Notes: a model not told the origin generated them from the sequence alone. Positions 5,701 through 63,166 are shown, numbered from the stretch's first letter. The stretch is DNA of 64,000 nt from Amoebophrya sp. A120 (GCA_905178155.1 CAJINV010000002.1:1733216-1797215); one strand, 5' to 3'. Made by a program: numbers and translations.

Positions 5701-8700
5701 CTCCTTCTCCACCAATTTCGACTGCTCGTGCGCGTTTTTACTTTCAATCGGGTGGTGAGACGTTTTCACGTGCCCATAGATTGTCATGTTGGACAGTTTG
5801 CTGAATCTCAACCTCGTCTGCGCCCCCACCCAAGTCCAGCTTGGCTCAATCCTCGCTTGCGCGGCCGCTTTCCAGTGAACTCTGCGTAAGTTTTGTTTCT
5901 TCCTTTCCAGAGCGGTTAGATAGCAGTACGTGTCAGAAGTGTTGTAACACACTCTATACCCGTTCTCCGTTTCCCGGAAGTGCTGCGCCGGGACTCCGCA
6001 GACTTGGCAACAATGCAAAACCGGTCTTGCAGCGGTCACGTTATGTGGAATCATCAAACCATGCGCCAGCAACGGATTCATCCTCGCCAACAACGTCGGC
6101 TGCATGAAAAATTTCAGATTCTCCCTTAGTCTCAACAAATGCAACGTCGTCTGCTCCTTCAGCAACTCATTGATGCTCATCCTCTTCTGATTCTGCTGCG
6201 GAGTGGCCAAAGTCGTTGTGCTTTCAATCCTTCTTTGCTTGCTATGCTCCTGAATCTGCTCTTCGGATAAGGTCCTTGGTAAATGCACCGCCAACGCCTT
6301 GGAACTCTCTGCTCCCTCCCGCGGCGACTTCATGTTGTTGCTCGCGTTTGAAGAAACTTCCCATGCGGATTGCGCTTGTAAACTGTTGTTACTGTTGTTC
6401 TGCGCGACCAGTTGCTGCTGTTTCTTCACGTGGACTAAGTTCTGGATCCTGCGCAGAAAATCCCGCATGTGCTTGTCCTTTTTTGTTTCCGGATCATCGT
6501 GTTCTTGATGTACTAGACCCCCTCCAAATTCCGACCCCTGGCTCATCCTAGTACCACTGTTGCGAAGAGCAGCTGCAGCATCGTTATGATCGTTGTAATG
6601 ACCACTGCTTTCCCCCGTGAACCGATTGTAAGAAACCCCGCGCTCCATCAAAGCCAAATCGATCCTGTTGATGCAAGCCGGCGGGACCACCGTCGGCGAA
6701 TCCTCGTCCGCCAGCATGCTGCACCACAAAATCGACGCTTCTTCCGCGAGTAAAATTGCGTGGTCGTAATTCCGCTCCTCCAACTCGATCGTCGATAAAT
6801 TCAACAAATTCCGAAAGCAATACGTCACCATCTGCCGGAAGAGTTGGAGTTCCCTCTCCTCAATCTGGTTCTTCGTGGATTTCTTCGTCGGAAAGAGCAA
6901 TTTGTTCAACCGGGAGGACTGGAGCAAAAACTTCTGATACCGGGATATCAAAACTTTCCACTGGGTTAATAATTCCAGCAGTAATTCCCGGATTCCCGCC
7001 TGCTCCACATCCAATTTTTGATTCATTGCAGCGAGCTGTTGTGTTTCCTTCGTCGATATGGATTGCAAATATGTCTGGGAGTCTGGAAACTTGTAATGCT
7101 GCGTTGGGAATAGGGAATGCTCTGCAAATGCAATGGTGCGCAGCCAAGCATGAGAAATGTCTGCGCTTCTTTGTGTTGCATTTTTCGCATGGCAAACTGC
7201 GTTTTTGCATGACAAACAAAAGGGCGTCTTCTTGGACACGCATCACAAACTTTTTTAGTCCTGCCAGACAAGCATGACAAACCTTGCATCCTTCCAGACT
7301 CAGACATATTTGCAATGCATAGTCGACCCGGGTAGGGTAAAATCCTGCATCTCGTCCGGTTTGGAATACTGCTTGATATCCCCCATGTGGCGGGAGATTA
7401 GAGATCCGATCTTACTCGACGGGCTGGTTAAGAGGGAAGACTTGCTGCTGATCGGGCCAGTACCAGTACCAGCAGCCGCAGCAGCGGAATTCGACGCGAC
7501 CAACTTCCTGCTGTGCTTCCGGAGAGAGATCCTGTGCTTCAACAGTAAGTGCTATGAGAGTGCACAACTCCCTCTCCCCCTCATTTGTAATGCAAAATAC
7601 CCAATCTTCCACCCTGTGCCTCTTGACACGTTTAGCGTGACAAGTTCTGGAAGCCCAAATAGCACTACACTCCTTCGCAAATTTGTCATGCAAAACCTGC
7701 ATTCTTGCTGGCACGTGTATTGCCGTTCATACTATACAAATGAGGGGGAGGGGGGGTTGTGCACTGTCATAAGTGCGTCAGCATGTGGTCTTCGTGCTTC
7801 AAATGATCTAATAATCGTTCCAAAGTCTCCATGATCTGGGAATGATGGAGCAAAAAACTCGTCCCGGTGCCGGTGTCGAGCAAAGAATTGTGGTCGTGGA
7901 TCTGCAGTTCGTCGATGTTATTTTTCTTGCTGTTCGAGGGGGAGCCGGATCTGCTGGTAGAAGAATTGTTGTTCGTCCCACTATTGATGTTCTTACTCCG
8001 CCCGCCATTCGCTGCTCTCCGGACTGCGTCGGGTTTCAGAGACTGTAAAAACAGTTCCCTCCGTCTCTCTTCAATTTTCTTTTCCACCCGTTGCTGCACG
8101 CGTTTCACCCGATTCCTGGCGTTTTGAAGTCGCTCTATCGACCTTTTTCCGGAAGATTTTTTCACGATAGTGTTCACTCGCTTGTTTTTCGGGCCAGGTT
8201 TCTTCTTCTTGTTATTTCCTGCCGCTGCACCGGGTTTCTTTCCTCGACCCATTGGCGTGTTCATTTTTTTCCCGCCTTGCTTTTGGTTCATCTTTTTCAT
8301 CGCGGGTGGTGCAGCTTTCATCTTATTTCCCCTGCCCTTGTTTTTTCCCATCTTCTTCATCGATAAAGTTTTCTGCCGCTTCTCGTAGTGGATTCTTTCC
8401 CGGTGCTCCACGATGACGTCGGTTAGAGACTGCACTTCGGAAAGCAACGTCGTGAAGTCCTCCACGTGGTAGCAGTACATGGAGTTGTCGGAATATCGCA
8501 AGAAAAACCTGTTTCACTGTGAACTTGTGATACAGAGGAAGCAGCATAAAAGTGTTTGTCTTGCTACACATGCAAGACGGTGACGGTGGCTTTTTAGCCG
8601 TTTTTTGCCTTCGGGTGCATGCATGGCAAATTTTGCCTGTCATGTCGAACTAACTTGTGATGCAAAACTTGCAACAAAATCCTCACCGTGAAATACTTTA

Positions 8701-10444: not shown

Positions 10445-10628
10445 GAGTGAGGTAACAAATTCCTCCGTTAAGTTACCCGGTTCCCAACCGCCAGCCCGTT
10501 CCAGCGGATCGGACCGTTCCGTTCTCCGGATCCCGGATCCCGGGAACCGGGTAACTTAGCGTCCGGCGGCCGGCCGGACGCTAAGTTACCCGGTAACAAA
10601 CTTAACGGAGGAATTTGTTACCTCACTC
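10445..10628. mobile_element. PIF/Harbinger-like MITE with nested palindromes
   Basis: Perfect 30-bp TIR gagtgaggtaacaaattcctccgttaagtt, taa on both sides, internal 21-bp-arm hairpin at 10547-10593. Confidence 0.8.
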
Positions 10629-11639: not shown

Positions 11640-14600
11640 TCAGTTGTCATCGATGGAGGTGTTGCTCTCGAAGAGTGAGCTAGACACGCTTCTCCTTCTC
11701 GCCCGATGTTGTGCTGCTCTTGTTGCATCTACTCGTCCATGCGTTGGTTCAATATCACCTGTTGGTTGTTCCTGCACCATCATTGGTTGATCAGCCTGTG
11801 CTGCGAGCGTTTCCGAGCGCCGGTGCAGAAGTTGTTGATACTGCATATTATCGTCTCCGAGTCGTGTTTCTTGCATCGGGCCTGCCAGGAAATCGGGTAA
11901 AGATGCAACGCCTGGCGGCCCTCCGGGCACAGCAACTATCCCCGGAGGCGGCTGCTGCACTCCTTCCGCCGGCCAAGACCACCCTACCAGCTCGTCACCG
12001 CGAAGCATTTGTGGTGCTGCTGTACCAGCAACGAATGGCGGCTGTGGCGTTTGCAGGTCAACACCAAATACCACTTGTTCCCCCTCCGAACCCCCGCCAA
12101 AAGTCGGTCGGTCCGCCAACATCGGCCTATTCTGCTGCTGGTGTTGCTGGTGGTGGCATTGGGGCCCGAAACCATTCCCGCCCACATTCACTCTCAACGA
12201 CGACCCTTGGCTTTGCGCACCCCCAGAGCCGTTGCTGTCTTGCGATAGAGGGGCGACAGCGCGGTAGTGCCCGGGCGAGGGCCGGGAGCTCGCGCTCGAG
12301 CCGCCGCTTTGGTACCGGGCGAATTCGCCGGAGTTATTGGGGTGGTAAAACGGGTCGCTTTGTTGCTGCTGGAGCTGCAGTTGCTGCTGGAGCAGATGAT
12401 GTTGCTGTGCCGCGGCAAATAGCGCTGCATTTGGATTTTGCTGTTGACCGCCGGGGAATGGATTCCCCAGTGTCACTGGCTGCACGTTCACCCGCATACT
12501 CGACATAGAGTTGGATGCTCCGCTATGAACTGCAAAAGCATCGTACTCGTATAAATGCATTACAAATTTCCTCAGCATGAGAAATAAAATTTGCAATGCT
12601 GATTTGCCTCAAGAAAAAAACTTGTGATGCAAGGCTTGCATTTATACGAATACGATACTTTTGCACAGGATATCCGCCAAGGCTAGAGCCATGCGACAAG
12701 GGCGGCGAATGCGGTCCGGCGGGGTAATACCAAATGTAAAAGTGTCTGGGTCTGGAAGAATGCAACTTGTGATGCTGCATTTGGATTCCAAAAAAATCTG
12801 TATTGCATGAGTACCAAAGGGAACGTAATTCTTGCTACGCGGAGAGGGCATTTGTCATGCGGAATAGGCATCAAGAAGCTCTCAAAAAATCTGTGATGCT
12901 AGGGCATGCACCACAGACATCAGGGCTCATGCAAAACGTGCATGACAAGTGTCAGAATCTTCCAGATCCAGACATTTTTACATTTGATAGGTAAGCACCT
13001 CCACCTCGTTGCGAGTGCCACGAACTGTTTGCCGAGCCAGAAGTGCTGGTTAAGTGTCGGTTGGTTCCCCGACCACTGCCCCCGGAGTTGTTCCCGCCGA
13101 GGGAGGGCACCGGACCTTGCCGGCTGGAAGCGGCAAAAGAGTTCCCCCCGGAGGAAGAGCTGGTGCCTTGGCCGGCGGAAAGATACGACTTCCCGCTACT
13201 AGACCCCAACCCGGAGCTGCTATGCGACCCCCCGGACTGAAAAAAGTCCCGCCGAATCTTCTGGCCCTGCTGTCGGCTTTGCGTTGGTGCGGAACTACGC
13301 GGCGGCCGGTATTGCGGGCCCGGTGGCCCCGTATGTACAACCGTGCTAGAAGCCACTCCTCTCGGGGCGGCCGCGAGGTCAAAACTCGACCCTGTAGGAC
13401 CTTGGGAAGAAGATGATCCGCCGTGGTTTACCATTTCGTGCTGATGTCCACCACCACTGCTAGAAGCAGCAGTGGCGCCTGCCGGCGTGCCCTTTGATGT
13501 AGTCGACGTCTGAGCAGGTCTGTTTCGATCTGACCCGTGGCTTGATCGGCCGGCGTTATTTGATGTTCCAACTACACCGGAAAAACTTCCCGGCGGCGAA
13601 ACCACCCCGCCTTTCTGGTGGTATTGGTGCGCATTTTTCGCTCCGCGCCTGGTTCTCTGATGCACTCCTTTCCCGCTACCCGGAGGGGACACGTAGTGAT
13701 GTTGCCCTCCGTGTTGCTGGTGCTGCTGCCCCCCATCGTACTGGGTCCCCGGCTGACTGGCCGGTGGGGAAATGTATCATACGAAAAAAGTGTTTCACTG
13801 TAAGGATTTTCCAGGTTTTGCATCACAAGTTTGTTCTACATGACAGAGAAAATTTGCCATGCAAGGTTCCTAAGGGAAAACACAGCTAAAAATCCATTGT
13901 CTTGCATGTGTAGCAAGACAAACACTTGTGAGATACATTTTCTGCATTACAAGTTTACAGTGAAACAGTTTTTTCTGGCGATAAAATGCGCATCGCCTCT
14001 AATAAGTCCAACGCCGCCATGGCTTCCTTGGCACTATCGGTACTCGGTGGGGGTCGAACCCGAAGCTGCTGTCCGAACTCTTGACTACCGCTGTGGGGGT
14101 GATAGGCGGACCCGCCGAAAGTGCTAGTACTTGAGGGTGGCCCGGAATGAGGCGGACGGAAGTAGGGAAACAGCTGTGGTTGGTGCAACATCGTGCCTCC
14201 ATAGTACACAGGCGGGGGATTATCAATTGCAGCGGCTGCAGCTGCAGCAGCACCTTCGTGTGGACCGTGCGGTAGCTGTTCCATGGTAGGGTTGGGAGGC
14301 AGAGGCATTGGGTTAATATTTTGTAGAAGACCTGGCTCAACATCTTGCAAGAACGGTTGTTGATGTGCAGAAGGTGTTGCTGCTTGTGCACCGGCAGCTC
14401 CGCCCCATGCACCGCTAGAACTACCCTCATTTTCCCACAGTCCGCCGGTACTCAACATGTCCCGCATTTCGTAGGGGATGTCGCTCATGGCACTTGTTGG
14501 AAGATGGTGCTGTTGCGGCTGCTGCAAAAATTGCTGTTGCTGCAGCACTTGCTGCTGCTGTAAAAGCTGTCGCTGCAGTTCTTCGTGCTGGAGCTCCTGC

Positions 14601-17600
14601 TGTTTCTTATGCATTGCAAATATGTCTACTGGGTCTGGAAGGATGCAACTTGTGATGCTGCATTTGCATTTGGATTCTAAAAAAATCTGTATTGCATGAG
14701 CAGCAAAAGCGGTCCAGTTTTTGCCACGGTGAGAGGGTACTATTTCTCATGCGGTATAGGCTTGAGGAAGCCCTCACAAAATCTGTGATGCTAGGGCATG
14801 CATCGCAGACATCAGGAATCATGCAAAATGTGCATGACAAACCTTGCATCCTTCCAGACCCAGACATATTTGCATTTGATATTTCTGTTGCTCCCGCAAT
14901 TGCTGCTGCTGGACGAGCAGGCAGTGGAGCTGATAGCTGACTGTGCCGCCCAGAGACGCAGACGCGGATGGTTGTCCGGCGTCTGGAAGATGTTGACCAG
15001 GGACAGCAGTAGCAGCTGCACTTTCCCCTCCGCAATGCACGCTTTTATCGCGCCGATGTAGTAGTTCTTGACCAGCTTGACCTCCCAACGCGGACAAACT
15101 CTGTCTGAGTCGCTGCTGCCGCAATAAGTCTTTTTGCCGTGCTAAATTCTCTCGTGTCAGCGGCATGGTCGGTAGCACGTCCGCAGTTTTTGCGTGTTGC
15201 GGAATTGTTCCCGCATGTGAGTCTACTGCATTTCCTTCGCCGGCGAACTCTCCAGATAAAAATTCCCGGTTTTTTCTGTCATGTGTCCCCTGTGGGTCTG
15301 ACGTTTGCCGCAGCCAGTCCATGTCACTGTCCATAGAAAGTTCTTCTTCGTCTATCGTAAGGAAAAATCCCCCCTCCCCATATTGAAAAGGCATGTTTCC
15401 GGAAATTTGTGTTGCTGATTTGAGGTCACAAATCACATTTTTCTTGCAAGAAGACAAGGGCAGAAGCTTCCGCCCCATTATGGAAGCGCTTTGTCATGCT
15501 GTTGGGCCTAGAGGGGAGCAGTTTGCCATGCTTAAGAACTAGACCCATACGCCCTTGCCTAGCCTGGGTATCTGGCCGCAGTGCCTTCCTGCAATACAAA
15601 GCTGATTTATGTACACAAATCCAGCATCAGAAGTTCCGTTTTGATATGGGGAGGGGGGATTTTTCCTCTCAATATCGTCAAGTGAGTCCTCTCTGTCCGG
15701 AACTCGCTTGCTAAAACTCCGCGGCTCCTGCTCTTCTTGTTGACTTGCCTGAAGATCATGATGTTTTGACTTTTTCAAAAGTAGTCTCGTCCTCTCCTGT
15801 TTCAACTTTCTATCTTGCTCTATCATTTCCGCCTGAAAAACTTCCGAATGCGCCAGCATTTCTTCGAATTTGACCTTGTCTACGCCTGTTGTCATGGCGT
15901 CTTTCAGTTTCGAGTCGAACGATACTGCCCCATCCTGCAGCAGCTTCAACCTCTGTTCGAGCAGGTCTTGGCTTGTCGCAGCTTCCATCGACTCGGCGAA
16001 GTAAGGAGCGCCTGGGGTAGCTCCGGCGCTGCTCGCTTGTGATAGCGGAGCAGACTGCTGAATCAGTTGAGCCGTCTGGTTCCTCTCGTGTAAACGTGCT
16101 TGGTAGAGCCCGGGAATTTCAGTTAAGTCGCCCAGATCCATTGGACGATGAGCTGTCGTCGTCGCGTCGGTTTCGTGGCCACTTGACGACGCAGCGCCAG
16201 GGCCGGTCCCGAGATGTGGAGTTTGCAGATGAACGTTGTCGCGATCATGCTGCTGTTGCGAAGCAAGAGCTTGTTGGTTGCTGACGTATATCTGCTGCTG
16301 CTGCTGCTGCTGCTGGGGGTCGCCCGCCGGCGGCACAGCGCCACCCTGCTGCAAACTCTGAATCTGCTGCAGCATGGCCAATCGTCTTTGCTCCTGCTGT
16401 ATGGATTGCAAAAGTGTCTGGGTCTGGAAGGTTGGAACTTGTAATGCTAGCTTTCCATACCTAGAATATCTGTATCTATTGCATTACCAACAAAAGTCGC
16501 GACCTCTTTTGTACATGCAAAAACGCAAATTCTCATGCGGATTGCCTATGAGAGAGCGTTCTGGAAAGTTGTCATGCTGGGTTGCATTCGGAACTCTTTC
16601 CATCATCCACATTCTAGCATCACAAGTTTCCAGACCCAGACATTTTTGCATTTGATATGCTGCTGCCAGAAGAAGTAGTTCAGAAGCTGATCCTGCTCTT
16701 GCGGGGGACCTCCCTGTTGCTCATCTTCAGTTGGCTTTTCTGGAATATCATGCCCTCCTTCTTGTTCTTGGGCCCGGGCAACATCGGCTGCCGCGGCAGC
16801 CGAAGCGGAAGCAGCCGCCGCTTCTCGCTGCTCCGCTCCTTGCAGCCTCTGGCGGCGGGTTTTGTCTCTACGGGGAGGCTTTACTTCTGCCTCCGCTTGC
16901 TTGTGCTCCTCTTCCTCTGCAGAAGTTTCGACACGTTCTTGCAGCCGTGCCTCTTCTGCAATTTCTTCTGCGGCAGATGAAGTAAAGGCAGCTGCACCAG
17001 CAGCCGCACTTGCTGGTGCCGCCGCAGTTGTAGCAGGCGAATTACTTTCGGTCCCAGCCGTACCAGATGTAGAGCCAGTTGGTTTATTCCTAACCAGTTC
17101 CGTAATCTCTTTTCGCATACTCTCCATTAACATTTGCTTCGCCGACGGGCCAGCTGCCTGATCCTGTTGCACTGATCCTCCTTTTACAAGTCTATCTCGA
17201 TCTTGCTGCAGAGCCACCGAGGTCGTGCTCTCAGCGGAGTAGAATTTGTCTTGCGACACTGTCAATAAAAGCGGCATCTGCGTCGTTACTGTACTGTCAA
17301 CTGCCGCCGCGGCGGCGACACTGCTACCGGAGCAGCTGCCGCTCCCGAAACAGGACGGCAACGGCGGAGAGGAACCAGTCGCGGGGGACGCACCCTGCCA
17401 CAAACTACCTGTTGCTGCTCCCGGAGCCGATGTCTGTTGACCACCTCCCGGGTGGGCAACAGGAGTTGTCGCGCCCACCTCCGTTCCCTATCAAATGTAA
17501 AAATGTCTGGGTCTGGAAGATTGCCAGACTTGTCATGCAGGTTTCCCATGACCCATGAGGTCTGGTATGGAGGACATAGCATGACAGATTCCGTGAGAGT

Positions 17601-32300: not shown

Positions 32301-33626
32301 TCGTTCTCCTCTTCGTTTTCCTTCGCTAACCGGAGTTTCTCTTCTCTCTCCTTCCGTTTCTGCTCTTCGAGTCTTTTCCGCTCCTCCTGCTCTTTTTTCT
32401 TCTGTTCTTCCTTCTCCAGTTCCGCTAACCGCTTTTTTTCCTTCTCCTCCTCCTGCTGTTTCTTAATCTGTTCCTGCTGCTTCTGCATCGCCTCAAACGC
32501 CTTTTCGTGCTTCCGCATCTCAAACAGTTCGTATGCTTCGCGGAATCTCCTGTATCGTTTCTTCAACCGGTCGATTTGAAACGGTTTCAACGTTTTCGTC
32601 AAAACCGGAACGAGGTGCATTTTGCTCATGTCGTCTTTTGAAGAGGAATCGTCGTCCTCCTCCTCGACCTCGTCCGGATCTGCCATCAACTGGTTGCTCT
32701 CAATTTATGCATGGCAAACACGTGATTTTGGGTCTGGATGAGTGCAGGATTTTGTGATGCAGATTCTTACGAGGACTGGAATGCTGGGTACACCAGCATG
32801 ACAGGTTTATTTGTAAGGGCTTGTTTCGTTTGCAAAAAAAAAGAAAAACCAAAACCATATATCGCATGGGAACAGATGCACTTTCAGCATGGCCAAAAAT
32901 GGGCATTTGTGTGATATGAATCTACAGTATGCATTACAAGTTGCAACACCTTGATGTTCCAGACCCAGATCCATATGTTTGCAAAATGCATAAAATTTTT
33001 TCGGAGACCATGTCGAGCCATTCCACAGCCTTCGCCTCGCTTTCAAAAATTCGGTTCTGTTCCCTCACTTGCCTCGACACTGCATTCATCGCCTCCGTTT
33101 CACTGTCTTCGTCAACATCTTCATATCCGACCATCGCAAACTCCTGAAGGTCGGCAAACATTTCATAGTCCTGGTCTTCCGGCTCCATGCCCGCGACTAG
33201 TTCATCCCTTTCCCGGATCTTTTCCTCTTCCGAGCTATTCACATCCCCGTCTAGTTTCTTCTGCTCTGTTTGCTCTTCCCGGATTTTCTTATTGTCGAAA
33301 AACTGGCAACACCCCTTACACTCCGGACAGATTAAAGCGTTCCGCTTCATCGCTTCGTCTAAGTTCATCAGTTCAAAGTTGTTCAACCGCGTTTTGTGCA
33401 TCCGCGACATGGCCTTGATCTGCTTCTCGATTTCCTTCTTGAACCGCGCGCCGCACTCATTGCTGCAGAGCCAGGTTAAATGCTCGTTTTTACACGTGTA
33501 GGTGTACGGACAGTCGTCCGTCATGCACGCTTTCCCGCATTGCTTACACTCCACCTGCTGACCCCGTCTGGCTTCCAGGAAGATTGCGGCATCTTTGTCC
33601 GCTGTGGAAACCGCGGCGAACGGCAT
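29309..33626 (-). CDS. Uncharacterised protein: Cys-rich N-terminus, coiled coil, C-terminal WW-like motif; 6 exons, ~1,079 aa
   Basis: Three introners and two GT-AG introns removed give a 3,240-nt frame. CKQC..C..C..H..C..C..CPEC at the N-terminus, WRK...VWYLNTVTHEW near the C-terminus. Confidence 0.78.
29799..30060. mobile_element. Family A introner
   Basis: TIRs (left starts tgt), perfect TSD tgtct, frame restored. Confidence 0.9.
30199..30331 (-). other. Canonical GT-AG intron
   Basis: G|GTATTG...AAAACAG|CC, frame restored. Confidence 0.75.
30437..30697. mobile_element. Family A introner (degenerate)
   Basis: TIRs, TSD gtagt/gtaat, frame restored. Confidence 0.88.
31040..31159 (-). other. 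Canonical GT-AG intron
   Basis: ATG|GTAGAG...TCACAG|CCC, frame restored. Confidence 0.75.
32706..32992. mobile_element. Family A introner (degenerate)
   Basis: TIR remnants, TSD caatt/aaatt, join K-I-E-S-N. Confidence 0.82.
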
Positions 33627-49100: not shown

Positions 49101-52100
49101 CTCAAAAACCGAATGTCTTGCAGGCACAGCAACACAAACACTTGACTTTCGTGTTTGATTCCACGCATGACAAGTTCACAGTGAAACAATTTTCCTTGCG
49201 GTACCAACGGCTGTAATGGTGTTCTGCGTGTCGTCGATCGCGGTAGTGACGTTTCCGACTTTGTCCTTCAACTCAGACACCGCCTCGGCGATACTTGTTA
49301 CGTCAGACAGCGTGTTCTGCCAAGTATCGATGATCGTGTCGATGTCCGTGAATTTTTCCGCCACCGTATCCTGAGGAAAAACGTCTCAATCCCAGAATTG
49401 TCATGCAGATTTGCAATGACAAGGACATTGGTGATGCGCATACCTATGGCAGACATTTCCAGTCGTGTTTTGGAATTTGTGATGCTGTGAACAGGATAAG
49501 CAGATGGATCTGTGATGCGGCTGCAGTTGCTAACCTGCACTACACTACGGAGTGCAACTTGTCATGCGTGACTCCCAAAGCTCCTAGGTTTGTGTTGCAA
49601 AATCCCCATCTTGACTCTGGTGTGGGGACGTTTTTACTGAGGATAGACCGCCATGGTGTCCGTTTTCACTTCCTGCATCCGGATCTCGTCGGCTTTTCTT
49701 TTCGCTAGAATCTCTTCATCGGACAACAACGTCGGCTCCTCCTCCATTGGATTTGTCCCTAACGCCAGTGTCACCGTTTTGTTCGTTTGTTCAGATGCTG
49801 CTTTGATGGTCTCTAGATATTCCACCATCTTTTCAAACAGCTGATCCCTCGCTTCTTCTATCGTAAGAAAAAACTGTTTCACTGTGAGCCTGTGATGCAG
49901 AGAACGAAGCAACAAAGTGTTTGTCTTGCTACACATGCAACACAACGGATTTTTAGGCGTGTTTTCCCCTGGGAAACACGCATGACAAATGTTCTGTGTG
50001 ATGTGTAGCAAACTTGTGATGCAGATCTTGCAAAACCATCCCAGTGAAACAGCTTTTCGTGGGATATCTTCCGTGGCCGGGTTCATTGCGGTGACGCCAG
50101 AAGAAGAGCCAGATGAAAGCGTGAAGTTGTCACTACTGTACAATTTCGCAGCAATCCCCTCGACTTCCTCTTTGATCCTCTGCAACAGCTGGTAGTGCTC
50201 CTGTTTCTGCTCCTCTGGGGTCGCCGATAAAACTCGTTCGCCGCCCGACTCAGATGAAAGCGAACTCGCAGCCTTTTTCCCATAAGCCGTGTTGTTCAGA
50301 ATCTCCCCCAACTGCGCCGCCTCCTGCTCGGACAGCATGTCTTGGTTTTGTATCATCGCATCCTGCACCTTCAACAGCCCCTCCGTGACCTTTTCACTCA
50401 CTTTTGCCGCGATCTCGTCGGCGTTGGTGGTTGTTGGGCTAGAGGACGCCGCCCCTGAGGTGGCCATCCCCGAGGAGCTGTTCGACGTATCGTCAGAAAA
50501 GCCAGAGTCTGCTGGGGACTGAGATTCTGAATCCGTTGCGCTGTTGGAGCCGAGAGTAGATGAGGCAGTTGTAGCAGGATCATCCCCACTACTCGCAGCC
50601 GACGCTCCGCCGCTCAACTGGTTCTTCAATTCCTGCACCACTGCGGAAGCTACATTTTTCCCGCTCAACTGCTCGCCCAAAGTGTTGATTTTGTTTTCCA
50701 ACACTGTCGGGTCGTACTGATTCCCCAAAGCAGCCGAGTCGTCGATCTTGTGCACGTTTTGCCAGTCGGTTAGGTTCAAGCCGGCGAGTTGAATGTTGAG
50801 TTTCTCTATGAAATGCAAAAGTGTCTGGGTCTGGAGAGTTGTGATGCTGGGTGGCGTATCGTATGGAGGCCACAAGTGCTGGCTCAGCATGACAAGTTTC
50901 TGAGCTTCTAGGTGTTGCCTATTCTGCATGACAGACTGCGTCTCTGCATGACAGAAAAGTGGCGCTCTTGGGTAACGCGTATGACAGATTTGAGAGTCAT
51001 GCCAGACAAGCATGACAAACGTGCACTCTTCCAGACCCAGACATTTTTGCATTTCATATTCTCTAGCAACTGTTTAATCTCGTCGGCGTTGGTGGTTCCC
51101 TGTGTTTGGAGGATCGCAAACTGCTCGGCTAGAACGTTCTTCACCTGTGTGGCGAGCGTCGGGGTGCTTGTCATCTCACCGCTCATGTAGCCACTGCCAC
51201 TCCCGTCTGTTGTGCTGCTATTCATCCTATGGATTGGAAATATGTCTGGGTCTGGAAACTTGTGATGCGGGTAGGACAATCATGATGACGTCTCAATTTG
51301 CAGCTCAGCATGACAAGTTTCTGAGTGCCTACGGTGTTGTGTATTCTGCATGACAAATCGCGTTTCTGCATGACAGAAAAATGGGGCTTTTGGGTAATGT
51401 GCGTGACAGCCTTTGGAGTCATGCTAGCAGAGCATGACAAGCCTTGGATTCTTCCAGACCCAGTCACTTTTACATTTGATACATCCCACCGTCGTTGAAG
51501 CCAGAACCCGCACTACCACTTCCGATCCCGAAAGTTTGGTTGATCGCGTCCAACGCCTTAAACAGTTTCACCGCGACGGTCTCCTGATTTTCCTTTACCG
51601 AATTATCCAATGACGCGATGACGGTCTGCAGCTCGTCCCTGTATCAAAGGTAAAAGTGTCTGGGTCTGGAAGATTGCAACTTGTGATGCTGTCTCTGCAT
51701 TATACAAAAATCTGTATTGCATGACCAGCAAGAGGGCTCCAGTTTGTGCTATATGGGGAGGGTATTTCTCATGCGGGATAGGCATCAGAAAGCCCGCTAA
51801 AAATCTGTGATGCCAGGTTATGCATTACAGACGTCATGTGTCATGTAAAATCTGCATGACATCCAGACCCAGATATTTTTACATTTGATACCCTGACCTT
51901 ATTCGCGATTTCAGTCGCGGAAACCCCGGCGTTGCTGTAAACGGTGTTGCCAAATGTACTAGATGAATTGCTTGTGTCATTCCCAGAACCTCCGTCGCAG
52001 CACCCTTGGTCCTTAATCGCTTTTACCACTTTCTCCGCAACATCCTCCTGATTTTCCTCCACCGCGTTTTCTAGTGTCGCAAACGCGTCCGCGAGCTCCA

Positions 52101-55100
52101 ACCGCACTTGCTGGGCGACGGTTTTGGCCTGGCTGGCGTCAGGACTGCCTGAATATGCTCCGGAAGAGGAAGAAGACGAGTTCGAAGCGGATGGATCAGT
52201 TGCACTACCACCGGGCACTCCTACTGCGGAAGATGGTCCTGCGCTACTACCGCTACCCGCATTTCCTCCAACCTCGCTGCTGATATGCCCCTTCAACTCT
52301 TCCTTGTCCGCTTCCATCTGCTTTTTCAAATCGGTTTGGAGTTGGCCAGAACTGCCTAGCAAACTTGTGAGCTTCTTCTCCACGGCGTCCGCAACTGCGG
52401 CAATGCCCTCGTCGTCCACTGCAGAGTTAGTATTTGTTTTTGCGCCAGCGGAAGGGGAAGAAGAGGACGCAGATGGCGAAGTACTAGCAGTTCCGTTAGT
52501 ACCACTCTGGGTGGTCGTATTAGAAGCTGCTGCACTTTTCGCATTAGCAGCTTTGTTTTTCGGTTGCGTATGTACAGGAACATAAGTCGGCTGAGGAGCT
52601 GGCTCGAACTTGTCTAATTCGGTCGAGATGTGGTTTTCCAATTCGGTGGTTAATTCGTCTTTCATATGGATTGCAAAAGTGTCTGGGTCTGGAAGATTGC
52701 CAGGTTTGTCATGCAGATTCTGCATGATTCGCGACGCCTGTAATGCATGATCTAGCATCACAGATTTGTAAAGGGCTTCCTAATGCCTATCCCGCATGAG
52801 CAATTCCCTCTCCGCGTAACACAAACTGGACTCCTGTTGCTGCTCATGCAATACAGATTTTTTTGGAATCCAAAGACAGCACTACAAGTTCCAAGCTTCC
52901 GGACCCAGACATATTTGCATTTGATACTTTAAATTCTCAGCGGTCGTCGTCATGTCCTGTTTCAAATCCTGCTGGAGTTCCCCAGTAGGAGCGAGTAAAT
53001 TCGCTAGTAATTGCTGGACCTCGTGTATCCAGGAAAAAAACTGTGTAAGTGTAACTCTGTGGGAGGAGCAGCATCACAAATTTGTTTTGAATTACAGGGA
53101 AAACCTGTCATGCGCACCTAGTACGTGAAAAAACGTATGAAATACGGCAATGACGCACGTCCAGCATGACAAGTGTAACTGTTTTGCATATTCTGCATCA
53201 CAGACTTACACTTACTCAGTTTTTTTGTGGCATATCGTGGGTCACGTGTTGGGCGATCTCTGCGGCGGTGAAATTCGCGTCGCTGATGTTCACTGGGTTC
53301 GGCCCGATGTCGATAGGTGTGCTGGCTGGAGTTGTGCTAGAAGTATTATCACCGCTGGTGTTACCCGCCGGGCTGCCGGAGTCAGTCGTGCCTGGAACAC
53401 CCGAAGAAGAGCCACTCTTAGAACTTGCCGAGCTAGAACCTCCAGATGAACCACCTGTATTGCTATTACTGCTAATCTCTTGCTTCAGACTGTCTGTGTT
53501 GTGGGTCATTTCGTGTTTCAGCATTTCCGAATTGCTCGCCATTTCGTGCTTCAAATCCTGCTGTAACTGACCGGAAGAGGAGAGCAAGTTGTTCAATAAT
53601 TGTTCCACAACCGTTTTCACCTGACTCGCCACCGCGGTCGCGTCTAGATTTGATGATGATGGTTTTCCTCCGTCATCGCTCTCGCTTGATGCCCCGTCGC
53701 CGGCTTCATTATCCTCGCCCGAGTCGTCTCCCGAACCATCGTCAGGTGCTGGCGCAGGTGAAGCAGCGGATTTACCAGAAGGCACGGTTGTAACACTAGG
53801 CGCTGGCGCCGGTTGCACGTCAATGTTGTTAATCTCGTGTTTCAATAATTCCGCATTGTGTGCCATCTCGTGCTTTAAATCCAGTTGCAACTGCCCACTA
53901 GACGACAACATCTCTAACATTTTCTGTTCCACAGCGGAAACGATTTCCGAAGTGTTCACAACGGTCGTGTTCAACCCAGTACTGTCCTGAATGATGTTCG
54001 TCACGTGGTGGTGGTCGTGATGCGCGTAGTTGTTCACCGTGTTGGTCGTGTTCAACGAACTCAAATCCAGTTTCGCTGCACTTAAATCCAGATTCGACAA
54101 TTTATCCTCCAATTCGGTGGAAAAATCCTGCTGCACTTCCGTCCGGATATCAAATGCAAATATGTCAGGCGGGTCTGGGCTTGTGCAAGACTTGTAATGC
54201 TCCACTAACAGGAGACAAAGATCTGTCATGCATGTTGCGCTACCGCGCTGCTTTTTTGTAAATGCAAAAACGCAGTTTCTCATGCAGTTTACGCAAGACC
54301 TACAAGTCGCTCAGATACTTGTCATGCGTTTCCCCATGTTGGAGGATGCTTGTGAGCTGCAAACATGCATCACAACTTTCCAGACCCAGACATATTTCCA
54401 ATACATACCGGATCTCCGTTTTTAATTTGTCCGCGTTCGTCGCCATTTCCGTTTTCAAATCGGTTTGGAGCTGGCCGTATCAAATGTAAAAATGTCTTGG
54501 TCTGGAAGGGTGCAACTTGTGATGCTGCCTTTGGATTCTACATAAAATCTGTCTTGCATAAACAGGAAAAGAGGTCCAGTTGTTGCTACGCAAAGACGGC
54601 ACTTCTCATGCGGTAGGAGCATCAGAAAGCTCTCGCAGAATCTGTGATGCTAGGCATGCATCACGATCACAGACATCATGACTCATGGAAAATATGCATG
54701 ACAAGCCTTGTATTCATCCAGACCCAGACATATTTGCATTTCATAGGCCGGAAGAGGAGAGGAGCTCAATCACTTTTTGTTCCACTGCAGTGGCGATTGC
54801 GTCGGTGTCGATAGAACCACTGCCACTGGAACTGCTACCGAAAATGCTGCCGCTGCTGTTGTTAGAAGAAGAAGCAGAACTAGATCCCCCACCATTGTTC
54901 GCCAGCGCGTGCGCCACCGAATCCTCTAAAGAGTCCATGAAATTCTGCACGGTGACTTCCTTTGCTAGTGTCCCGACCGTGGATTCTTTCGCGACTTTTT
55001 GATCCAAAGTGCCTACCGCGGTTCTCAAGTCCGACACGTCGGCTTTGATGGTGTCGAGGTGGTCTTCCGTTAAGGTCCCAACAGACTGAATCAAAGTGTC

Positions 55101-58100
55101 CAGTTTCGAAGCGAGACTGGATTGCGCCGTGGTGATGGCGTTGAGCTGTTTTATTTGGAGATTTTTACATGACAAGGAGATCCACTCATGCGAAAGTACG
55201 CATGACAAACTTTACAAATACAGATTCAAAGCAACATTACCTTGATATCCTCCGCATCCAGTCTATTGTTGATCTTCACCAATTCATCCGTCGTCGTGCT
55301 CCCAACGTCTAAACTCTTCACTTTCTCCCGAAGCGAAGAAGAAGAGGTCAACGTCTCCTTGTTCGCCACCAAACTGTGTGCCGGGACTAACGGTATCGGC
55401 TTGAAATACTTCGGTGGTTCGTCTTGTGGGGGCGGCGGGTTTTCCCCTTTTTGTGGGGGTGCTGGCGGCTTCTCTCCCTCTTTTTCTTTGTCTTTTTTAT
55501 CCTTCCCCTTCTCGTGCAGATTCGGTTGTGGGTTCTGCGCATGGTCGTTCGAGTCTATAGTCTGGTGCGGCGGGAGAACGATCGGGGGTTGTTTGCTATT
55601 TTTACTGCCAGGAGGTTTTGTCGTTTTAGTTCCCTTCGTGCCGTGCGGCTTTACATCCTCCTCTTCTTTGGGTTTTTCATCGTTGTTTTCCCCCGCCGCA
55701 GCAGTACCTCCAGGAACACCAGAGTGCTCTTCTTCAGTTTTATCCACACCGCCGTTCCTCAGCGTGTAGCTTTTGACATTTTCATTTAACGTCGCCGCAG
55801 AAGTTTTAGTAGTTTTTGCCTCCTTCCTCGCCACCGACATGGCCGCAGCCATCTGATCCAAATAGCTCGCACCAGATCTGCTTATTCTACCGGTTGCAAT
55901 TTTGCTCATGTGGATTTCGTCTAAGCCAGCTTCTTGCACGGGGGAAAGATGTTGGAGGGGCGACAAGTGCTCGTCGTGGGGATGATTATGTAGTGGTGTT
56001 GGAGTTATTTCTCTTTCTGATGCGCGGCTTCTCTCCCCTTTTTCTACTTCGTCGTCCTTCTCCTCTTCCCTCACCGCCGCGGCGTACTTTTTCGCCTTTT
56101 TCGCCACTTTTTCCAGCGTGATTTGCTTCTTCTTGTAATCTTCCGCCACGGCCTTCGAAGGCATCTTCAGTACGTAGTCGAAATTTTTATGGTGTTTTGT
56201 TCCACCCTGGAGGTACTCGTGCTTCTCGGGTTTCTGCATGAGCTATTAAAACCTTGAAAACGCTCCCCAGGGAAAAAATGCAAAAATGTATGTTGTCACA
56301 GATCCGAATGCGATGCTGATGTGGCGCGAAGTTATAAAAAATGCATACGGCTTCTGCTTTCTGCTTGCGCATGAGAAAAAATAACTGGTTGCTCCTCAGA
56401 CTACGACATGCAACTTCGCTTCGTATATGATAAACCCTTTATCCTTTCTGAGGCACGTGTTCATCAATTTCTTAGTAGCGTCTTGTCCATCATCTCCTGA
56501 TATGCAAGCTCCGGTGTCAAAAACGGTTTTTCCTGTTCCCCCCCTTCGTTTTCCGCATCTTCCCCTTCCTCCAGCATCTTATGAGTGTCGGCACTGCTCC
56601 TATGCTTTTTTCTCCTCCGTCGTGCACTCGCTTTCTCCGCTTCTTTTTCTTCTTCATCACTGTCTTCCTCCAAATCTTGGTATCTGCTCCCGCTTGTTCC
56701 CCCCTCCCCGGAATCGCTGCTCCTCCTGTGTCCCCCCTCCCCGGAATCGCTGCTCCTGTGGTGGCTTTCGTCTCTTCTCTCCCGCCGCTGGCTCTTGCGG
56801 ATTAACGTCGCCGCGTCGTCCGCACTCAAAGCGGGAGGAGTGCCGCGGGGGCTTCTTTCCGCCGGGTCGGGGAACGCGTTTGGGTAATGCGAAGATCTCG
56901 CGGATGAATGGGAATTGTGACGTCTACTTGGAGGCACGGGAACGTAGTTATGCGGCAAATTTCCGGCGCCCTTGCCGTTGATGGGCGCGTGCACACCGTT
57001 GGGGCGGTAACCGGGCATCTGCTTCGATGATGAGGCCGTTGTTGTTTGGTCTTGGATCTTTAGATCCTTTTCTTCTGCTTTCATCTCTTTTACCAGTTCC
57101 GACGATGTGGAAGAAAATTTTTTCCTGTCTTGGATCTCCGTGTTGACCTTCGCTTCATCAAGACCGAAAATTTCCTTCGCCGCAAGAAGCGCGTGCTGTT
57201 TTGCCTTTTCCAAACCGGAGAGATGAGCTACTTCCGCGTTAGGTCGTGTGGTTTTGAACACTGCTCCCGCTGAACCTGCGTCATCTGTAGGAATTTGGTC
57301 TCTTCTTTCTGGCCCCGACTGCTCCACCTTCTCGACGGGAGGTTTTACTGCCATTTCGCGCTTCGAAGGCAGGTCCAGAATTTCCGAAACCGGCGACGTC
57401 TTGCTGGTCATTTCGGAAGGCAGTTGCTGCTGCTGCTGATGTGGCTTGTCCGAAAGCTCGCTTTCACCAGTCAGCTCCGGATTATGTCCCTCCGAAACGT
57501 CAAACGGGCCCGCTGCAAACTTCTGGCGCTGCTGTTTCTCTAGTGCAGCGAAGTCTACCATATTGTTGTCATGCGCCGCAGATGAAGATCTCCCCGCTGG
57601 AGTGGTTCTGATCTCATCTCCACTTCTTCTGCTCGTCGACTTCATCACTCCGTGGTCTGTTTTCTTCACCCAACTATTCCCTCTACTCCGAACGAAATTT
57701 CCGGAAAAAAGTTTGTTCCCCAGCATGCGCACCAACGGCACCATTCCGGCTCGGCGGTTGTACGAACTTCTGATCGCCTCACGACGGAAGCGGTCTCTCC
57801 TGCTGCGTTTGCTACTGTCATCTTGCTGTGCAGGAGGAGCCTTGGCTCCCCTAGCAGACCAAGAGGACGGCCTATTTTTCCTGTTGTTGTTCTTTCCCTC
57901 TCCGGAAAGAAGAACATCGGAATAAACGGAACTTGTGCTCGTAGTTGTAGGACGACTAGCTTCGGTCGTGCTGCTTGGTGGTACTAGTCCAACGTGGTCG
58001 ACACGGTTCTCGAACACTTCCCCGAGCTGTCCTGCGACGGTGTGAGGAAGTACAGAATCATGCTGGTAGGGGATTTTTGCATCTTTCTCCTTTTCGGTAC

Positions 58101-60504: not shown

Positions 60505-63166
60505 TCACCTCTGAAACCATTCTCGATTCCACTCTGGCATTTGCAGCGACCCGCCTTGCTGTTTTATCCTTTCCGCTGACAAGGTCAAGCATTCATACCC
60601 GTTTTCCGTGACCAGAAACGTGTGCTCAAACTGCGCACTGCGGGCTCCGTTCATGGTCACCGCGGTCCAGTCGTCGGGCCAAATGCCGTCGTGGCTGTTG
60701 TTCAACCCCAGATTGATCATCGGCTCGATGGTGAAAATGTGCCCCGGCTTCATGATCCCCGGCACCTTCGAGCCCTTGTAATGGGGGACCTGTTTTGACG
60801 ATTTTCATGATAATCGAGTTTGTCATGGAGCAATGGTGATAACAGCAGGCATTTGCCATGCGGAACAACAACCCAAAAGAATAGTGAGTACAATCGCGTG
60901 TGCCAAAACATCAATACCCCCACCAGCAACAATCAAACCTACATACCTGTGGCGGCCCGTGAAACAATTTTCCGACTCCGTGCCCACAATACGCTGTTAC
61001 CACAGAGCATCCTCTCCCCTCCGCGACCTTTGTTATCTGATTCCCCACCGACCGGTATAATGTTCCCGGCTTTATCGTCTTTGCCGCGGCCAACAGCGCG
61101 CTGTAGGCGGTTTCAACTAGTTTCGCGGACTCCTCAACTGTTCTTTTCTTCTCGTCCGGCAGTTTCTCGAAATACTCCGGGTCGGTGTAGGATTTCCCGA
61201 CCAAAAAGGTTTCGTTCAAATCCGCGTGGAAGCCTCTGCTGTAGACGGAAATGTCCAAGTTGATGATGTCTCCGTCCTCAAACGGCCGGTCGTCCGGAAT
61301 GCCGTGGCAAATCACTTCGTTTGCGGACACACAGACGGATTTGGGGAACCGGTAGTAGTTGAGGGGGGAAGGGTAAATCCGGCGGTCAATGCAGGCTTGG
61401 GTAATGATTTTGTCAATCTGGTCCCCGGTCACGCCGACGCAGACGTAGCTGTATTTGCAGTTATGAAGTGGATGAGCGGTGATATCTTTTGTCATACGGA
61501 ATTTCAACGCAGAAGCACGGGGCGCGGGCGCATGCTGCGTTTGTAAAACCGATCATGATGGTGATGTGTAGTGGGGCGCGCGAGGTGCAAGCTACGGTGC
61601 GCAAAGCTGTTTGAAATTATATGGTTGTCAGCACGATGCAATTTCTGATATCGACTCCGAATGGAATTTGTCATGCGTGATGGAACTGCAGAGAAAAATC
61701 TGTTTGACACAGTAGTACCAAGTTCCAACACTACGAAAAGATAGAAGTGTGCTTGGGTCGCAAATTGTGCCATTTATTTTCTGTAGCGGCAACATACCAA
61801 CACGTTGTTGCATTTTGAGAGCAACACGTGCAACTAGGAGCGCATATTTCGGTTCCTTGTATTAGTGCATTAGAAGACCCACTGCTCTTGCAAAAATGAA
61901 AATTTGCATACTCATACGAAAAAATCAAGTATAAGAGAACGAGTACCCGCTCGCCAAGTCCAGCACGTCTCTTCCCAGCCGGCACACTTCCCGCATGATC
62001 TCCAACTCGTCGCCCTTAACCACCTATCAAATGTAAAAATGTCTGGGTCTGGAAGAATGCCAGGTTTGTCATGCATATTTTGCATGACACATGATGCCTG
62101 TAATGCGTGGCCTAGCATCACAGATTTTGAGAGGGCTTTCTGGTGCGTATTCCGCATGAGAAATGCCCTCTCCGCGTAGCACAAACTGGACTCCTTTTGC
62201 TGGTCATGCAATACAGACTTTTTTGGAATCCAAACACAGCATCACAAGTTGCAATCTCCCAGACCCAGACATTTTTACATTTGATACCACCGGCACCACG
62301 TTTTCCGGGTGCTGCTGCTCGGAGAGACAATGTCCCTCTGGGTGGTCCGCGTAATCCGGGGCCTCGATGTAATCCGGCATCTTGACCTATGCATTGCAAA
62401 TATGTCTGGGTCTGGAAGGTTGCAACTTGTAATGCTAGCTTTCCATACCTAGTAAATCTGTATTGCATAACCTACAACAGTCGCAGCCTCTTTGTCTTTT
62501 GTTCATACAAACAACTTCTCATGCGGATTGCCCATGAGAAACCGTTCTGGAAGGTTGTCATGCTAGGTTGGATTCGGGACTGTTTCCATCATCCACATTT
62601 TAGCATCAGAAGTTTCCAGACCCAGACATATTTGCAGTTGATATCACCTGTTTCATCACCTTCCCGGGTCTCAGTTCCCCGCTAAAAACATACTCCTTCG
62701 GTCTCCTTCTCACCCGCCCTGGGGCCTCCCAATACTCGGGCTCTGGTTGCTTTTTCCCCATTTTCTTCTTCGCGGTGGTTATTGTAGTCGCTGACGTGGC
62801 CTGCTCGGATGATGGGTTATTTTTATCGCCGTTACTTGGTGCAGCTGCTGGGGTAGGAGGTTGTGTCGGTGCTAAACCCAAAACGTTCATGGCCCAGTCG
62901 TCGAATTTGAGAACTTCCTCTCCATCCTCATTGGTGTCCCAATACGCGCCGCGGAGCTTCTTGTTCCCCTTCTTTTTCGCCTTCTTCTTCGCATTTTTTG
63001 ATTTTTTCGCTGCGGAAGGCTCGGCGTCTTGTTGATCGGCGGTTGGGTCGGTGGGAGCATCGGCTGCGATTTTTGCGTCAGTTGCTGCTGCCACATCTTC
63101 CATAACAACATCTTCTGCTGCCGCGGGGTCTGGCTTCGCCGTTTTCTTCTTGCCGGCGGGAGCCAT
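60505..63166 (-). CDS. METAP1: Methionine aminopeptidase type 1, 5 exons, ~492 aa
   Basis: [75 protein letters not shown]. Joined frame is 1,479 nt. Confidence 0.95.
60790..60946 (-). other. Canonical GT-AG intron
   Basis: CAG|GTATGT...CAAAACAG|GTC restores P-Q-V-P-H-Y. Confidence 0.9.
61449..61946 (-). other. Canonical GT-AG intron
   Basis: GG|GTACTC...ATACAG|C restores S-G-Y-V-C-V-G-V-T. Confidence 0.85.
62025..62286. mobile_element. Family A introner (GT-AG compatible)
   Basis: TIRs, perfect TSD ccacc. Confidence 0.93.
62388..62643. mobile_element. Family A introner (GT-AG compatible)
   Basis: TIRs, TSD tgacc/tcacc. Confidence 0.92.

What the first reader, a model, noticed from the sequence alone, without database searches (positions are those of the whole stretch)
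7553..62286. The same element works as an intron in either orientation
Seen: all host genes are minus-strand, yet copies are mutually inverted in five families: A (12728, 14608, 51642, 54478 vs 41464, 52665, 62025), B (7553 vs 38378), C (12524 vs 40153), E (8494, 49859 vs 13775, 48974) and F (48115 vs 49367). Known: spliceosomal introns need polar donor, branch and acceptor signals. Inference: the signal is symmetric (TIR stem and motifs on both strands), pointing to structure-guided excision.
Basis: partly seen in the sequence, partly recalled or inferred. Interest (0 to 1): 0.8.

Follow-up and report, generated by a model that had tools for sequence, protein, structure and literature searches.

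The report
Reversible transposon introns with fixed cuts
In the parasitic dinoflagellate Amoebophrya, already-described mini-transposons are cut out of messenger RNA whichever way round they sit, because both ends carry the same sequence; they are likely cut at one fixed offset without the usual GT-AG signals, which would make the unsolved splicing mechanism directly testable.

Summary
Observation confirmed. The window is Amoebophrya sp. A120 and the elements are its published introners (TAT…ATA inverted ends, 5-bp target duplication; PMC7789003). All five families have inverted copies in minus-strand genes. A spliced contig removes 13 of 13 elements of one gene, in both orientations for families A, E, F and a sixth family (one sample). 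B and C rest on annotation or open frames only. In related loci, 14 of 14 families occur both ways. The inference is only partly right: inverted ends present the same polar signal in either orientation, so reversibility says nothing about structure. Pairing next to the cut is at chance and shows no RNA-strand signature. New here: every informative junction fits one polar register, exon|N-TAT…ATA-NNNN|exon (5 RNA junctions plus 2 annotated proteins; p about 0.02 together, 0.2 for RNA alone), with G+1 and AG not needed. The published 'variable' splice sites are reproduced by sliding within the duplication. Most likely a modified spliceosome reads a U+2 donor and a distance-set acceptor; a non-spliceosomal stem-guided route remains open.

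The parts
4049..4219 (-). Element without target duplication (0 of 5); pins the register
   Evidence: Annotated protein P0121 removes 176 nt = element+5, G|TAT..ATA|CCTT; in-frame AG 3 nt further on is not used
7057..7321 (-). Family G element, orientation 1
   Evidence: removed (270 nt) in P0121
7553..7771 (-). Family B element, orientation 1
   Evidence: removed (224 nt) in P0121
8494..8714 (-). Family E element, orientation 1
   Evidence: removed (226 nt) in P0121
12524..12672 (-). Family C element, orientation 1
   Evidence: frame restored
12728..12989 (-). Family A element, orientation 1
   Evidence: frame restored
13775..13983 (-). Family E element, orientation 2
   Evidence: frame restored
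14608..14881 (-). Family A element, orientation 1
   Evidence: frame restored
15353..15674 (-). Element of another family
16400..16657 (-). Element related to 62388
17489..17750 (-). A-related subfamily, orientation 2
17801..18111 (-). Element of another family
19374..19533 (-). Family C element, orientation 1
20133..20384 (-). Family G element, orientation 2
20471..20692 (-). One-armed A-like element: 5' arm intact (G|TATC), 3' arm lost; splicing unresolved
   Evidence: no in-frame AG found between 20420 and 20519
21002..21186 (-). Short family A element, orientation 1; informative duplication
   Evidence: P0126 removes 190 nt and reads H, which allows 0-1 nt only
29799..30060 (-). A-related subfamily, orientation 1
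30437..30697 (-). Family G element, orientation 2
32706..32992 (-). Diverged element; keeping the whole upstream duplication copy gives a stop
36421..36760 (-). Element of another family
38136..38284 (-). Family C element, orientation 1 (same gene as 40153)
38378..38595 (-). Family B element, orientation 2
   Evidence: frame restored
39338..39644 (-). Element of another family
39804..40085 (-). F-related element
40153..40302 (-). Family C element, orientation 2
   Evidence: frame restored
41147..41407 (-). A-related subfamily, orientation 2
41464..41725 (-). Family A element, orientation 2
   Evidence: frame restored
47411..47662 (-). Family G element, orientation 2; spliced
   Evidence: joint 47405>47663
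47832..47972 (-). C-like element; spliced; informative duplication
   Evidence: joint 47827>47974
48115..48393 (-). Family F element, orientation 1; spliced; informative
   Evidence: joint 48109>48394
48525..48625 (-). Canonical GT-AG intron in the same transcript, two TGTCATG motifs
   Evidence: joint 48524>48626
48974..49203 (-). Family E element, orientation 2; spliced; informative
   Evidence: joint 48968>49204
49367..49645 (-). Family F element, orientation 2; spliced; informative
   Evidence: joint 49362>49647
49859..50066 (-). Family E element, orientation 1; spliced
   Evidence: joint 49853>50067
50807..51058 (-). Family G element, orientation 1; spliced
   Evidence: joint 50801>51059
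51228..51481 (-). Family G element, orientation 1; spliced
   Evidence: joint 51222>51482
51642..51890 (-). Family A element, orientation 1; spliced
   Evidence: joint 51636>51891
52665..52926 (-). Family A element, orientation 2; spliced; informative
   Evidence: joint 52660>52928
53026..53234 (-). Element of another family; spliced
   Evidence: joint 53020>53235
54148..54407 (-). Family G element, orientation 2; spliced
   Evidence: contig length budget 538 = 265+273 nt
54478..54745 (-). Family A element, orientation 1; spliced
   Evidence: contig length budget
55146..55240 (-). Canonical GT-AG intron in the same transcript, two TGTCATG motifs
   Evidence: adjacent contig pieces
62025..62286 (-). 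Family A element, orientation 2, in the methionine aminopeptidase gene
   Evidence: removed in annotated protein P0001
62388..62643 (-). Element related to 16400, same gene
   Evidence: removed in P0001
45526..56000 (-). Host transcript covered by the spliced contig (13 elements, 2 canonical introns)

Best explanation
These are Amoebophrya A120 introners, MITE-like elements with a 5-bp target duplication that are removed from mRNA in either orientation, likely at one fixed polar register (exon | N TAT…ATA NNNN | exon) and likely by a modified spliceosome. Shown: the two ends are the same sequence read inwards, so either orientation gives the transcript the same 5' end (TAT-C/G-N5-AAA) and the same 3' end; element plus exactly 5 nt is removed, which restores the pre-insertion mRNA; G+1 and AG are not needed. 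Inferred: the 5' arm supplies positions +2 to +5 of a donor (U-A-U-S, like the GTAT/GTAC/GTAA starts of the host's canonical introns) with +1 left free; the acceptor is set by distance, 4 nt after the terminal ATA; the 25-30 bp terminal stem would act as a bridge that brings the ends together rather than as the cut signal; the TGTnATG/CATnACA motif, shared with canonical introns, would be a general intron mark. Because 1+4 equals the duplication length, any insertion at any site and in either direction would be silent, which would explain the invasion. Component odds: both orientations spliced 0.97; one fixed register 0.75; spliceosome as the machine 0.6.
For: RNA contigs: 11 of 11 element joints remove element+5 in 4 of 4 runs of one sample; two more by length. 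Allowed numbers of plus-strand left-copy bases kept: 47832 1-3, 48115 0-2, 48974 0-1, 49367 1-5, 52665 1-3; only 1 is common, across opposite orientations. Annotated proteins agree: 21002 0-1, and 4049-4219 exactly 1, with a nearby in-frame AG ignored. A shared register under independent random cuts has p 0.205 (RNA only) and 0.024 (with the two proteins). Terminal base is polar: 5' T changed in 0 of 391, 3' A in 11 of 391 (p 0.0009; 0 vs 6 of 311 perfect-duplication copies, p 0.03). Duplication composition equals coding background: G at +1 in 101 of 311, AG at -2/-1 in 22 of 311. Canonical and element introns share one transcript and the motif: 6.1 per kb in 5 supported canonical introns, 12.8 in elements, 0.31 in exons, 0.52 intergenic. 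The spliceosome is nearly complete but U1 snRNA was not detected (PMC7789003 section 10), and tunicates splice non-canonical transposon introns with an altered spliceosome (abstract of PMC13326754).
Against: The register rests on 5 junctions of one gene in one sample plus 2 annotation-derived proteins; contigs hide minor forms. The codon-likelihood test on 80 imperfect duplications favours this register only weakly (best in 841 of 2000 bootstraps; not best in the 25 copies of one orientation). Among 114 calls set aside for unclear strand, three have a changed 5' terminal base (two give G|C, one A|A) and one a changed 3' base, so the pooled count is 3 vs 12 (p 0.035), and two or three of the eleven 3' deviants may be mis-called ends. 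No branch point was identified. Arms are more complementary than within-family shuffles at positions 14-30 (4299 vs 4146), which fits a stem role or mere subfamily structure. Nothing here tests the spliceosome directly.
Confidence: 0.55

Rival explanations
1. Structure-guided, non-spliceosomal excision: a protein or nuclease-ligase binds the terminal stem and cuts 1 nt before and 4 nt after it.
For: No GT-AG; stem positions 9-21 pair with mean probability about 0.8-0.9 in both orientations; modest excess complementarity at positions 10 and 14-30; both arms persist around unrelated cargo of about 1-2.5 kb (L047, L075); U1 snRNA not detected; the fixed register fits this too.
Against: Positions 4-8 pair no better than chance (57, 56, 78, 43, 81%; 989 vs 986); G.U vs A.C is 7:7, 85:92, 46:40 and 178:203 over the four zones; sense is not more stable than antisense (80 of 150, p 0.62); the terminal T is better kept at the 5' end than its partner A at the 3' end; canonical introns share the internal motif. 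These tests have limited power because much arm variation is inherited from master copies.
Confidence: 0.3
2. Both orientations are spliced but the cut is not fixed: it floats within the 5-bp duplication (all such registers give the same mRNA), or some copies use ordinary GT/GC/GA-AG sites taken from the duplication, as in Polarella introners.
For: PMC7789003 describes splice sites as variable relative to the hairpin (Fig. 3 legend); the RNA-only convergence has p 0.2; 40 of 391 copies could use G[TCA]-AG.
Against: 351 of 391 copies have no such register; no enrichment of G or AG in duplications; the duplication-free element is cut at the predicted place; sliding junctions towards GT-AG likeness reproduces the published top splice-site list (31-32% of copies in the nine listed classes vs 18% for the fixed register and 5% for left- or right-most placement), so the published variability is likely an alignment effect.
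Confidence: 0.12
3. The elements are removed from DNA (programmed elimination, or an empty allele) and the RNA comes from the cleaned template.
For: Inverted ends and a target duplication are DNA-transposon marks; DNA excision is blind to orientation; the laid runs X1-X4 are only guessed to be RNA.
Against: The X1-X4 contig also lacks two GT-AG introns and X1 leaves neighbouring genes and intergenic DNA uncovered, as RNA would; X5 contigs (even depth 40-45, DNA-like) run from exons into the elements on both sides without breaking; the register is polar with respect to transcription. The X5 joint table was cut (1471 rows not shown), so rare DNA excision is not excluded.
Confidence: 0.03

Closest known systems
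Amoebophrya A120 introner elements (Farhat et al. 2021, PMC7789003; sections 10, 11, 16, passages and supplement text read, figures not seen)
   Same: Same organism; inverted repeat starting TAT, seven looser bases, then AAA; 5-bp direct repeat; repeated families; non-canonical ends; hairpin proposed. These are those elements.
   Different: In the text I saw, element orientation is not discussed and the splice position is called variable or unknown (inverted repeats 1-5 nt from the sites). Here both orientations are shown spliced and one register is proposed. Figs 3 and S19-S25 could hold more than their legends.
Two-orientation introners of Polarella glacialis and Aureococcus anophagefferens (Roy et al. 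preprint 10.1101/2020.10.14.339549, parts 1-2 of 4 read; the Aureococcus paper itself not read)
   Same: DNA-transposon introners with inverted ends and target duplications that make introns in either orientation.
   Different: They carry or recruit GT/GC/GA and AG sites, so their target sites are constrained; here neither G+1 nor AG is needed and target composition is background.
Euglenid nonconventional introns (review PMC11282704, section 6 read)
   Same: MITE-like, inverted ends offset unequally from the two junctions, non-canonical ends, unknown machinery.
   Different: CAG at +4..6 / CTG at -8..-6 and a pyrimidine|purine junction rule there; here TAT at +2..4 / ATA at -7..-5 with free junction bases. 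Circular excised RNA is reported there and untested here.
Fritillaria borealis non-canonical introns (abstract and passages of PMC13326754; review PMC11282704 section 6)
   Same: Transposon-derived non-GT-AG introns handled by an altered spliceosome.
   Different: They keep preferred end dinucleotides (AG-AC, AG-AT) and U1; here the first base and last four bases are free and U1 snRNA was not detected.

Membership tests
Amoebophrya A120 introner elements | Host is Amoebophrya sp. A120 | tested here: met
   P0001 98% and P0121 100% identical to window exons, both named A120 by their source
Amoebophrya A120 introner elements | Inverted repeat = TAT, seven looser bases, at least three A | tested here: met
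   TAT in 40/40/39 of 40 copies; A in 35, 37, 37 of 40 at arm positions 11-13; paper text
Amoebophrya A120 introner elements | Direct repeat of 3-5 nt at the borders | tested here: met
   5 bp perfect in 28 of 40 window copies and 375 of 523 locus copies
Amoebophrya A120 introner elements | Repeated, RNA-supported, non-canonical introns | tested here: met
   RNA support for 13 of the 40 window copies
Polarella/Aureococcus two-orientation introners | Intron formed in either orientation | tested here: met
Polarella/Aureococcus two-orientation introners | GT/GC/GA donor and AG acceptor carried or recruited from the duplication | tested here: not met
   GT-AG possible in 16 of 391, G[TCA]-AG in 40 of 391
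Euglenid nonconventional introns | CAG at +4..6, CTG at -8..-6, pyrimidine|purine junctions | tested here: not met
   ends are N-TAT and ATA-NNNN with all four bases at +1 and -1
Euglenid nonconventional introns | Selected terminal RNA stem | tested here: inconclusive
   stem can fold, but no strand-specific or near-junction pairing signal
Euglenid nonconventional introns | Excised as full-length circles, not lariats | not testable with these tools
   only contigs covered the gene; raw-read runs X8 and X9 laid 11 and 21 reads
U2-type spliceosomal intron | GT/GC…AG ends | tested here: not met
U2-type spliceosomal intron | U at intron +2 (recalled spliceosome feature) | tested here: met
   391 of 391 under the inferred register; three probable exceptions among 114 set-aside calls
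U2-type spliceosomal intron | Branch point, lariat, dependence on U2/U5/U6 | not testable with these tools
   no lariat data; snRNA alignments are figures that could not be read
MITE (non-autonomous TIR transposon) | Short, non-coding, inverted ends, fixed-length target duplication, many copies | tested here: met
MITE (non-autonomous TIR transposon) | Cognate autonomous element with a transposase | tested here: inconclusive
   two long copies found in 860 kb; the 415-codon frame in L075 and three other frames have no Pfam match; genome not held

The most novel reading that the evidence does not exclude
Amoebophrya runs a splicing system in which a palindromic transposon end is the whole signal: U+2-A-U-S as donor with a free first base, and an acceptor placed by a 4-nt ruler after the mirror-image ATA with no AG. 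The 1+4 offset matches the 5-bp target duplication, so insertion anywhere, in either direction, is silent. If the spliceosome does this without U1, it breaks the rule that the first and last intron bases are recognised; if it does not, it is a second nuclear mRNA splicing machine. The published picture of unpatterned splice sites would then be an alignment artefact hiding one rule.
Probability: 0.6. Interest if true: 0.85.

Novelty: new variant of a known kind. Interest (0 to 1): 0.58.

Why it matters
How Amoebophrya removes its tens of thousands of non-canonical introns without U1 snRNA is an open question in PMC7789003 and in the 2024 review PMC11282704. One fixed, orientation-independent register turns 'no clear signature' into a precise rule that existing raw RNA-seq can test genome-wide, tells annotators where the junctions are, and names the bases to mutate. 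It also explains why these elements spread so freely: no target sequence and no orientation is excluded. The elements, the hairpin idea and two-way introners as such are already in print.

Tried and rejected
No whole genome is held, so genome-wide counts come from 144 stored loci of a related assembly (860 kb, overlapping), not from this genome; none overlaps the window's unique DNA. No RNA holder was listed as such; X1-X4 are judged RNA from their splicing. X1 left exons at 36001-45338 uncovered: no evidence either way for 38378, 40153, 41464. Table S4 of PMC7789003 lists nine top A120 splice-site pairs, all with T at +2; I rejected it as support because sliding towards GT-AG likeness reproduces it better than the fixed register. 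Codon-likelihood and stop-codon test of the register: weak, and biased towards one register by how frames were chosen. Drift of +1 towards G or of -2/-1 towards AG in imperfect duplications: none seen (6 vs 9 for G at +1). Covariation of +1 with -1: none evident. One-armed-element test: 52 orphan arms found, the output was cut, and most of those I could read were whole elements missed by the caller or copies with cargo. 20471-20692: no annotated protein crosses it. Motif-blind prediction of canonical introns was crude (29 introns, some acceptors wrong, some decayed elements). Search for the protein of the 29312-33689 gene found nothing. Viral contigs: no match to the arm pattern. Rfam: none. 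L075 cargo as transposase: no Pfam match. Earlier findings: none. From (42 candidates) I dropped 3 low-scoring ones (10453, 33687, 34784), corrected one start (47832) and added 48974, giving 40. Of 563 calls (523 + 40), 404 had a usable strand and 391 of these a duplication match of at least 3 of 5.


Full report
What is there. The window holds 40 two-armed elements of 141-340 nt that start TAT and end ATA, with 25-30 nt inverted arms and a 5-bp target duplication, perfect in 28 of 40. It also holds one copy without a duplication (4049-4219) and two one-armed copies (20471-20692; about 900-1211). An exon at 60914-61552 is 98% identical to a protein named Amoebophrya sp. A120 and one at 4225-7047 is 100% identical to another. 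The arm profile matches the published A120 introner motif. The elements are therefore already described.

The observation. Removing element plus 5 nt opens long minus-strand frames. A 7.4-kb contig, present in runs X1-X4 of one sample, skips 11 elements between 46801 and 53900, each by exactly element+5, and one GT-AG intron on the minus strand (12 of 12 joints listed). Its piece lengths show two further elements and a second GT-AG intron removed. Both orientations of A, E, F and an extra family G are among them. Annotated A120 proteins remove 7057, 7553, 8494, 21002, 62025 and 62388 in the same way. Families B and C have no RNA evidence for both orientations, only frames or annotation.

Wider counts. 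An arm pattern found 148 stretches in metagenome contigs, stored as 144 loci. A caller that recovers 37 of 40 window copies, with 4 extra calls there and 4 in three shuffles, gave 523 distinct elements, 375 with a perfect 5-bp duplication. Host strand was called from reading frame and codon use for 382 of the 523; 302 of 319 calls agree with their locus majority (the codon model was trained on the window's own minus frames). All 14 families with at least 4 members have both orientations relative to the gene, 204 to 129 against 191 expected as the majority under 50:50 (5-95% range 182-201). The two largest families lean 57:36 and 38:21 (p about 0.04 uncorrected) and are those whose arm was the search pattern.

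The register. Where the two duplication copies differ, the mRNA shows which was kept. The five informative RNA junctions allow only one common split: the first four bases of the upstream copy and the last base of the downstream copy. The intron is then N-TAT…ATA-NNNN, in opposite orientations alike. Protein P0126 agrees at 21002. Protein P0121 removes 176 nt at the duplication-free element, which fixes this register exactly and passes over an in-frame AG three bases on. Chance of a shared register is 0.205 for RNA alone and 0.024 with these two, which are annotation-derived. A codon-based test on 80 imperfect copies leans the same way only weakly. I put the fixed register at about 0.75.

Conventional signals are absent. 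Duplications have background composition; G at +1 in 101 of 311, AG at the end in 22 of 311; GT-AG is possible at any compatible register in 16 of 391. PMC7789003 calls the sites variable; its Table S4 top list is reproduced by sliding my junctions towards GT-AG likeness. I read the published variability as likely an alignment effect and do not count that table as support. That aligners slide this way is recalled, not checked for that paper's pipeline.

Structure or sequence. Orientation independence cannot separate them, because inverted arms give identical ends either way. Against a stem-defined cut: arm positions 4-8 pair at chance level, G.U does not exceed A.C on the transcribed strand, and sense and antisense fold alike; positions 4-7 pair with probability 0.47-0.62 against about 0.8-0.9 at 9-21. 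For a stem role: excess complementarity at positions 10 and 14-30 and arms kept around long cargo. For polar sequence reading: the terminal T (intron +2) is unchanged in 391 of 391 while its mirror A varies in 11. Adding set-aside calls makes this 3 against 12, and two of the three exceptions read G|C. Supported canonical introns start GTAT, GTAA or GTAC and share the TGTnATG/CATnACA motif, which is about 20-fold rarer in exons; 29 crudely predicted canonical introns hold 19 hits against a shuffle mean of 2.4, maximum 8.

Mechanism. I commit to a modified spliceosome: the arm supplies donor positions +2 to +5, the acceptor is measured 4 nt from the mirror ATA, and the stem bridges the ends (0.55). 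Shown: removal of element+5 in both orientations and absence of GT-AG. Inferred: fixed register, the machine, the roles of stem and motif. Main rival: a stem-guided non-spliceosomal route as proposed for euglenids (0.3).

Literature. Seen: PMC7789003 (passages, sections 10, 11, 16, supplement text parts 2 and 4 and search hits; no figures); preprint 10.1101/2020.10.14.339549 (parts 1-2 of 4), which reports two-orientation introners using ordinary sites; PMC11282704 (passages, section 6); PMC9860276, PMC12130899, PMC11453091 (passages); PMC13326754 (abstract, passages). Seven searches turned up no statement of orientation independence or of a fixed register for Amoebophrya. Subscription papers, the figures of PMC7789003 (Fig. 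3, S19-S25) and the supplements of the other papers were not seen and could hold it.

Verdict. The added value is a likely single cut rule that makes an open splicing question testable. New variant of a known kind, interest 0.58.

Noticed in passing
window 20471-20692: A-like element that has lost its 3' arm; the flanking frames join only if 224 nt are removed (G|TATC…ACAAA|G), and the nearest AG is one base out of frame. A natural test of whether the 3' arm is needed.
   Followed up: partly
window 4044-4224: The four bases after the 3' arm (CCTT) are the reverse complement of the four before the 5' arm (AAGG), so the stem is extended where the duplication has vanished.
   Followed up: partly
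window 2-1924: Reverse-transcriptase-like frame (PF00078, E 2.5e-5, below cut-off) with a one-armed element at about 900-1211 and one in-frame stop at 1076-1078.
   Followed up: no
window canonical introns 48525-48625, 55146-55240, 60790-60946, 61446-61945: Carry the elements' TGTnATG/CATnACA motif in either direction and end in A-rich AAACAG/ATACAG without a pyrimidine tract; they may be decayed elements or share a general intron mark.
   Followed up: partly
391 elements, window and L001-L144: Intron phase under the inferred register is 181:95:115 (p 2e-7) although target composition looks like background.
   Followed up: partly
L075:476-2934: 2.46-kb family-A copy with a perfect duplication; a secondary insertion into its 3' arm carries a 415-codon frame with no Pfam match; the host frame continues across the whole element.
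   Followed up: partly
L047:10001-10972: 972-nt copy with unrelated cargo between intact arms and a perfect duplication.
   Followed up: no
L042:10329: Copy flanked by an 8-bp duplication; removing element+5 would add one codon and keep the frame.
   Followed up: no
L067:15857 and L002:1359: Copies whose 5' terminal T is C both have G at +1, giving a GC start.
   Followed up: partly
window 22993-23052: Annotated protein P0125 lacks 57 nt here, with neither GT-AG nor element ends.
   Followed up: no
window 10453-10633: Nested palindromic stretch in intergenic DNA, unlike the elements.
   Followed up: no
window about 24700-25600, 27300-28400, 58700-60100: GC-rich (about 60-65%) intergenic stretches with G and C runs.
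   Followed up: no
window 42843-44537 and 60508-63166: KH-domain frame and methionine aminopeptidase gene; P0121 at 2715-9312 carries a protein kinase domain.
   Followed up: no
PMC12130899 methods passage: That survey required 5'-to-5' similarity between introns, which would split or miss inverted copies of one family.
   Followed up: no
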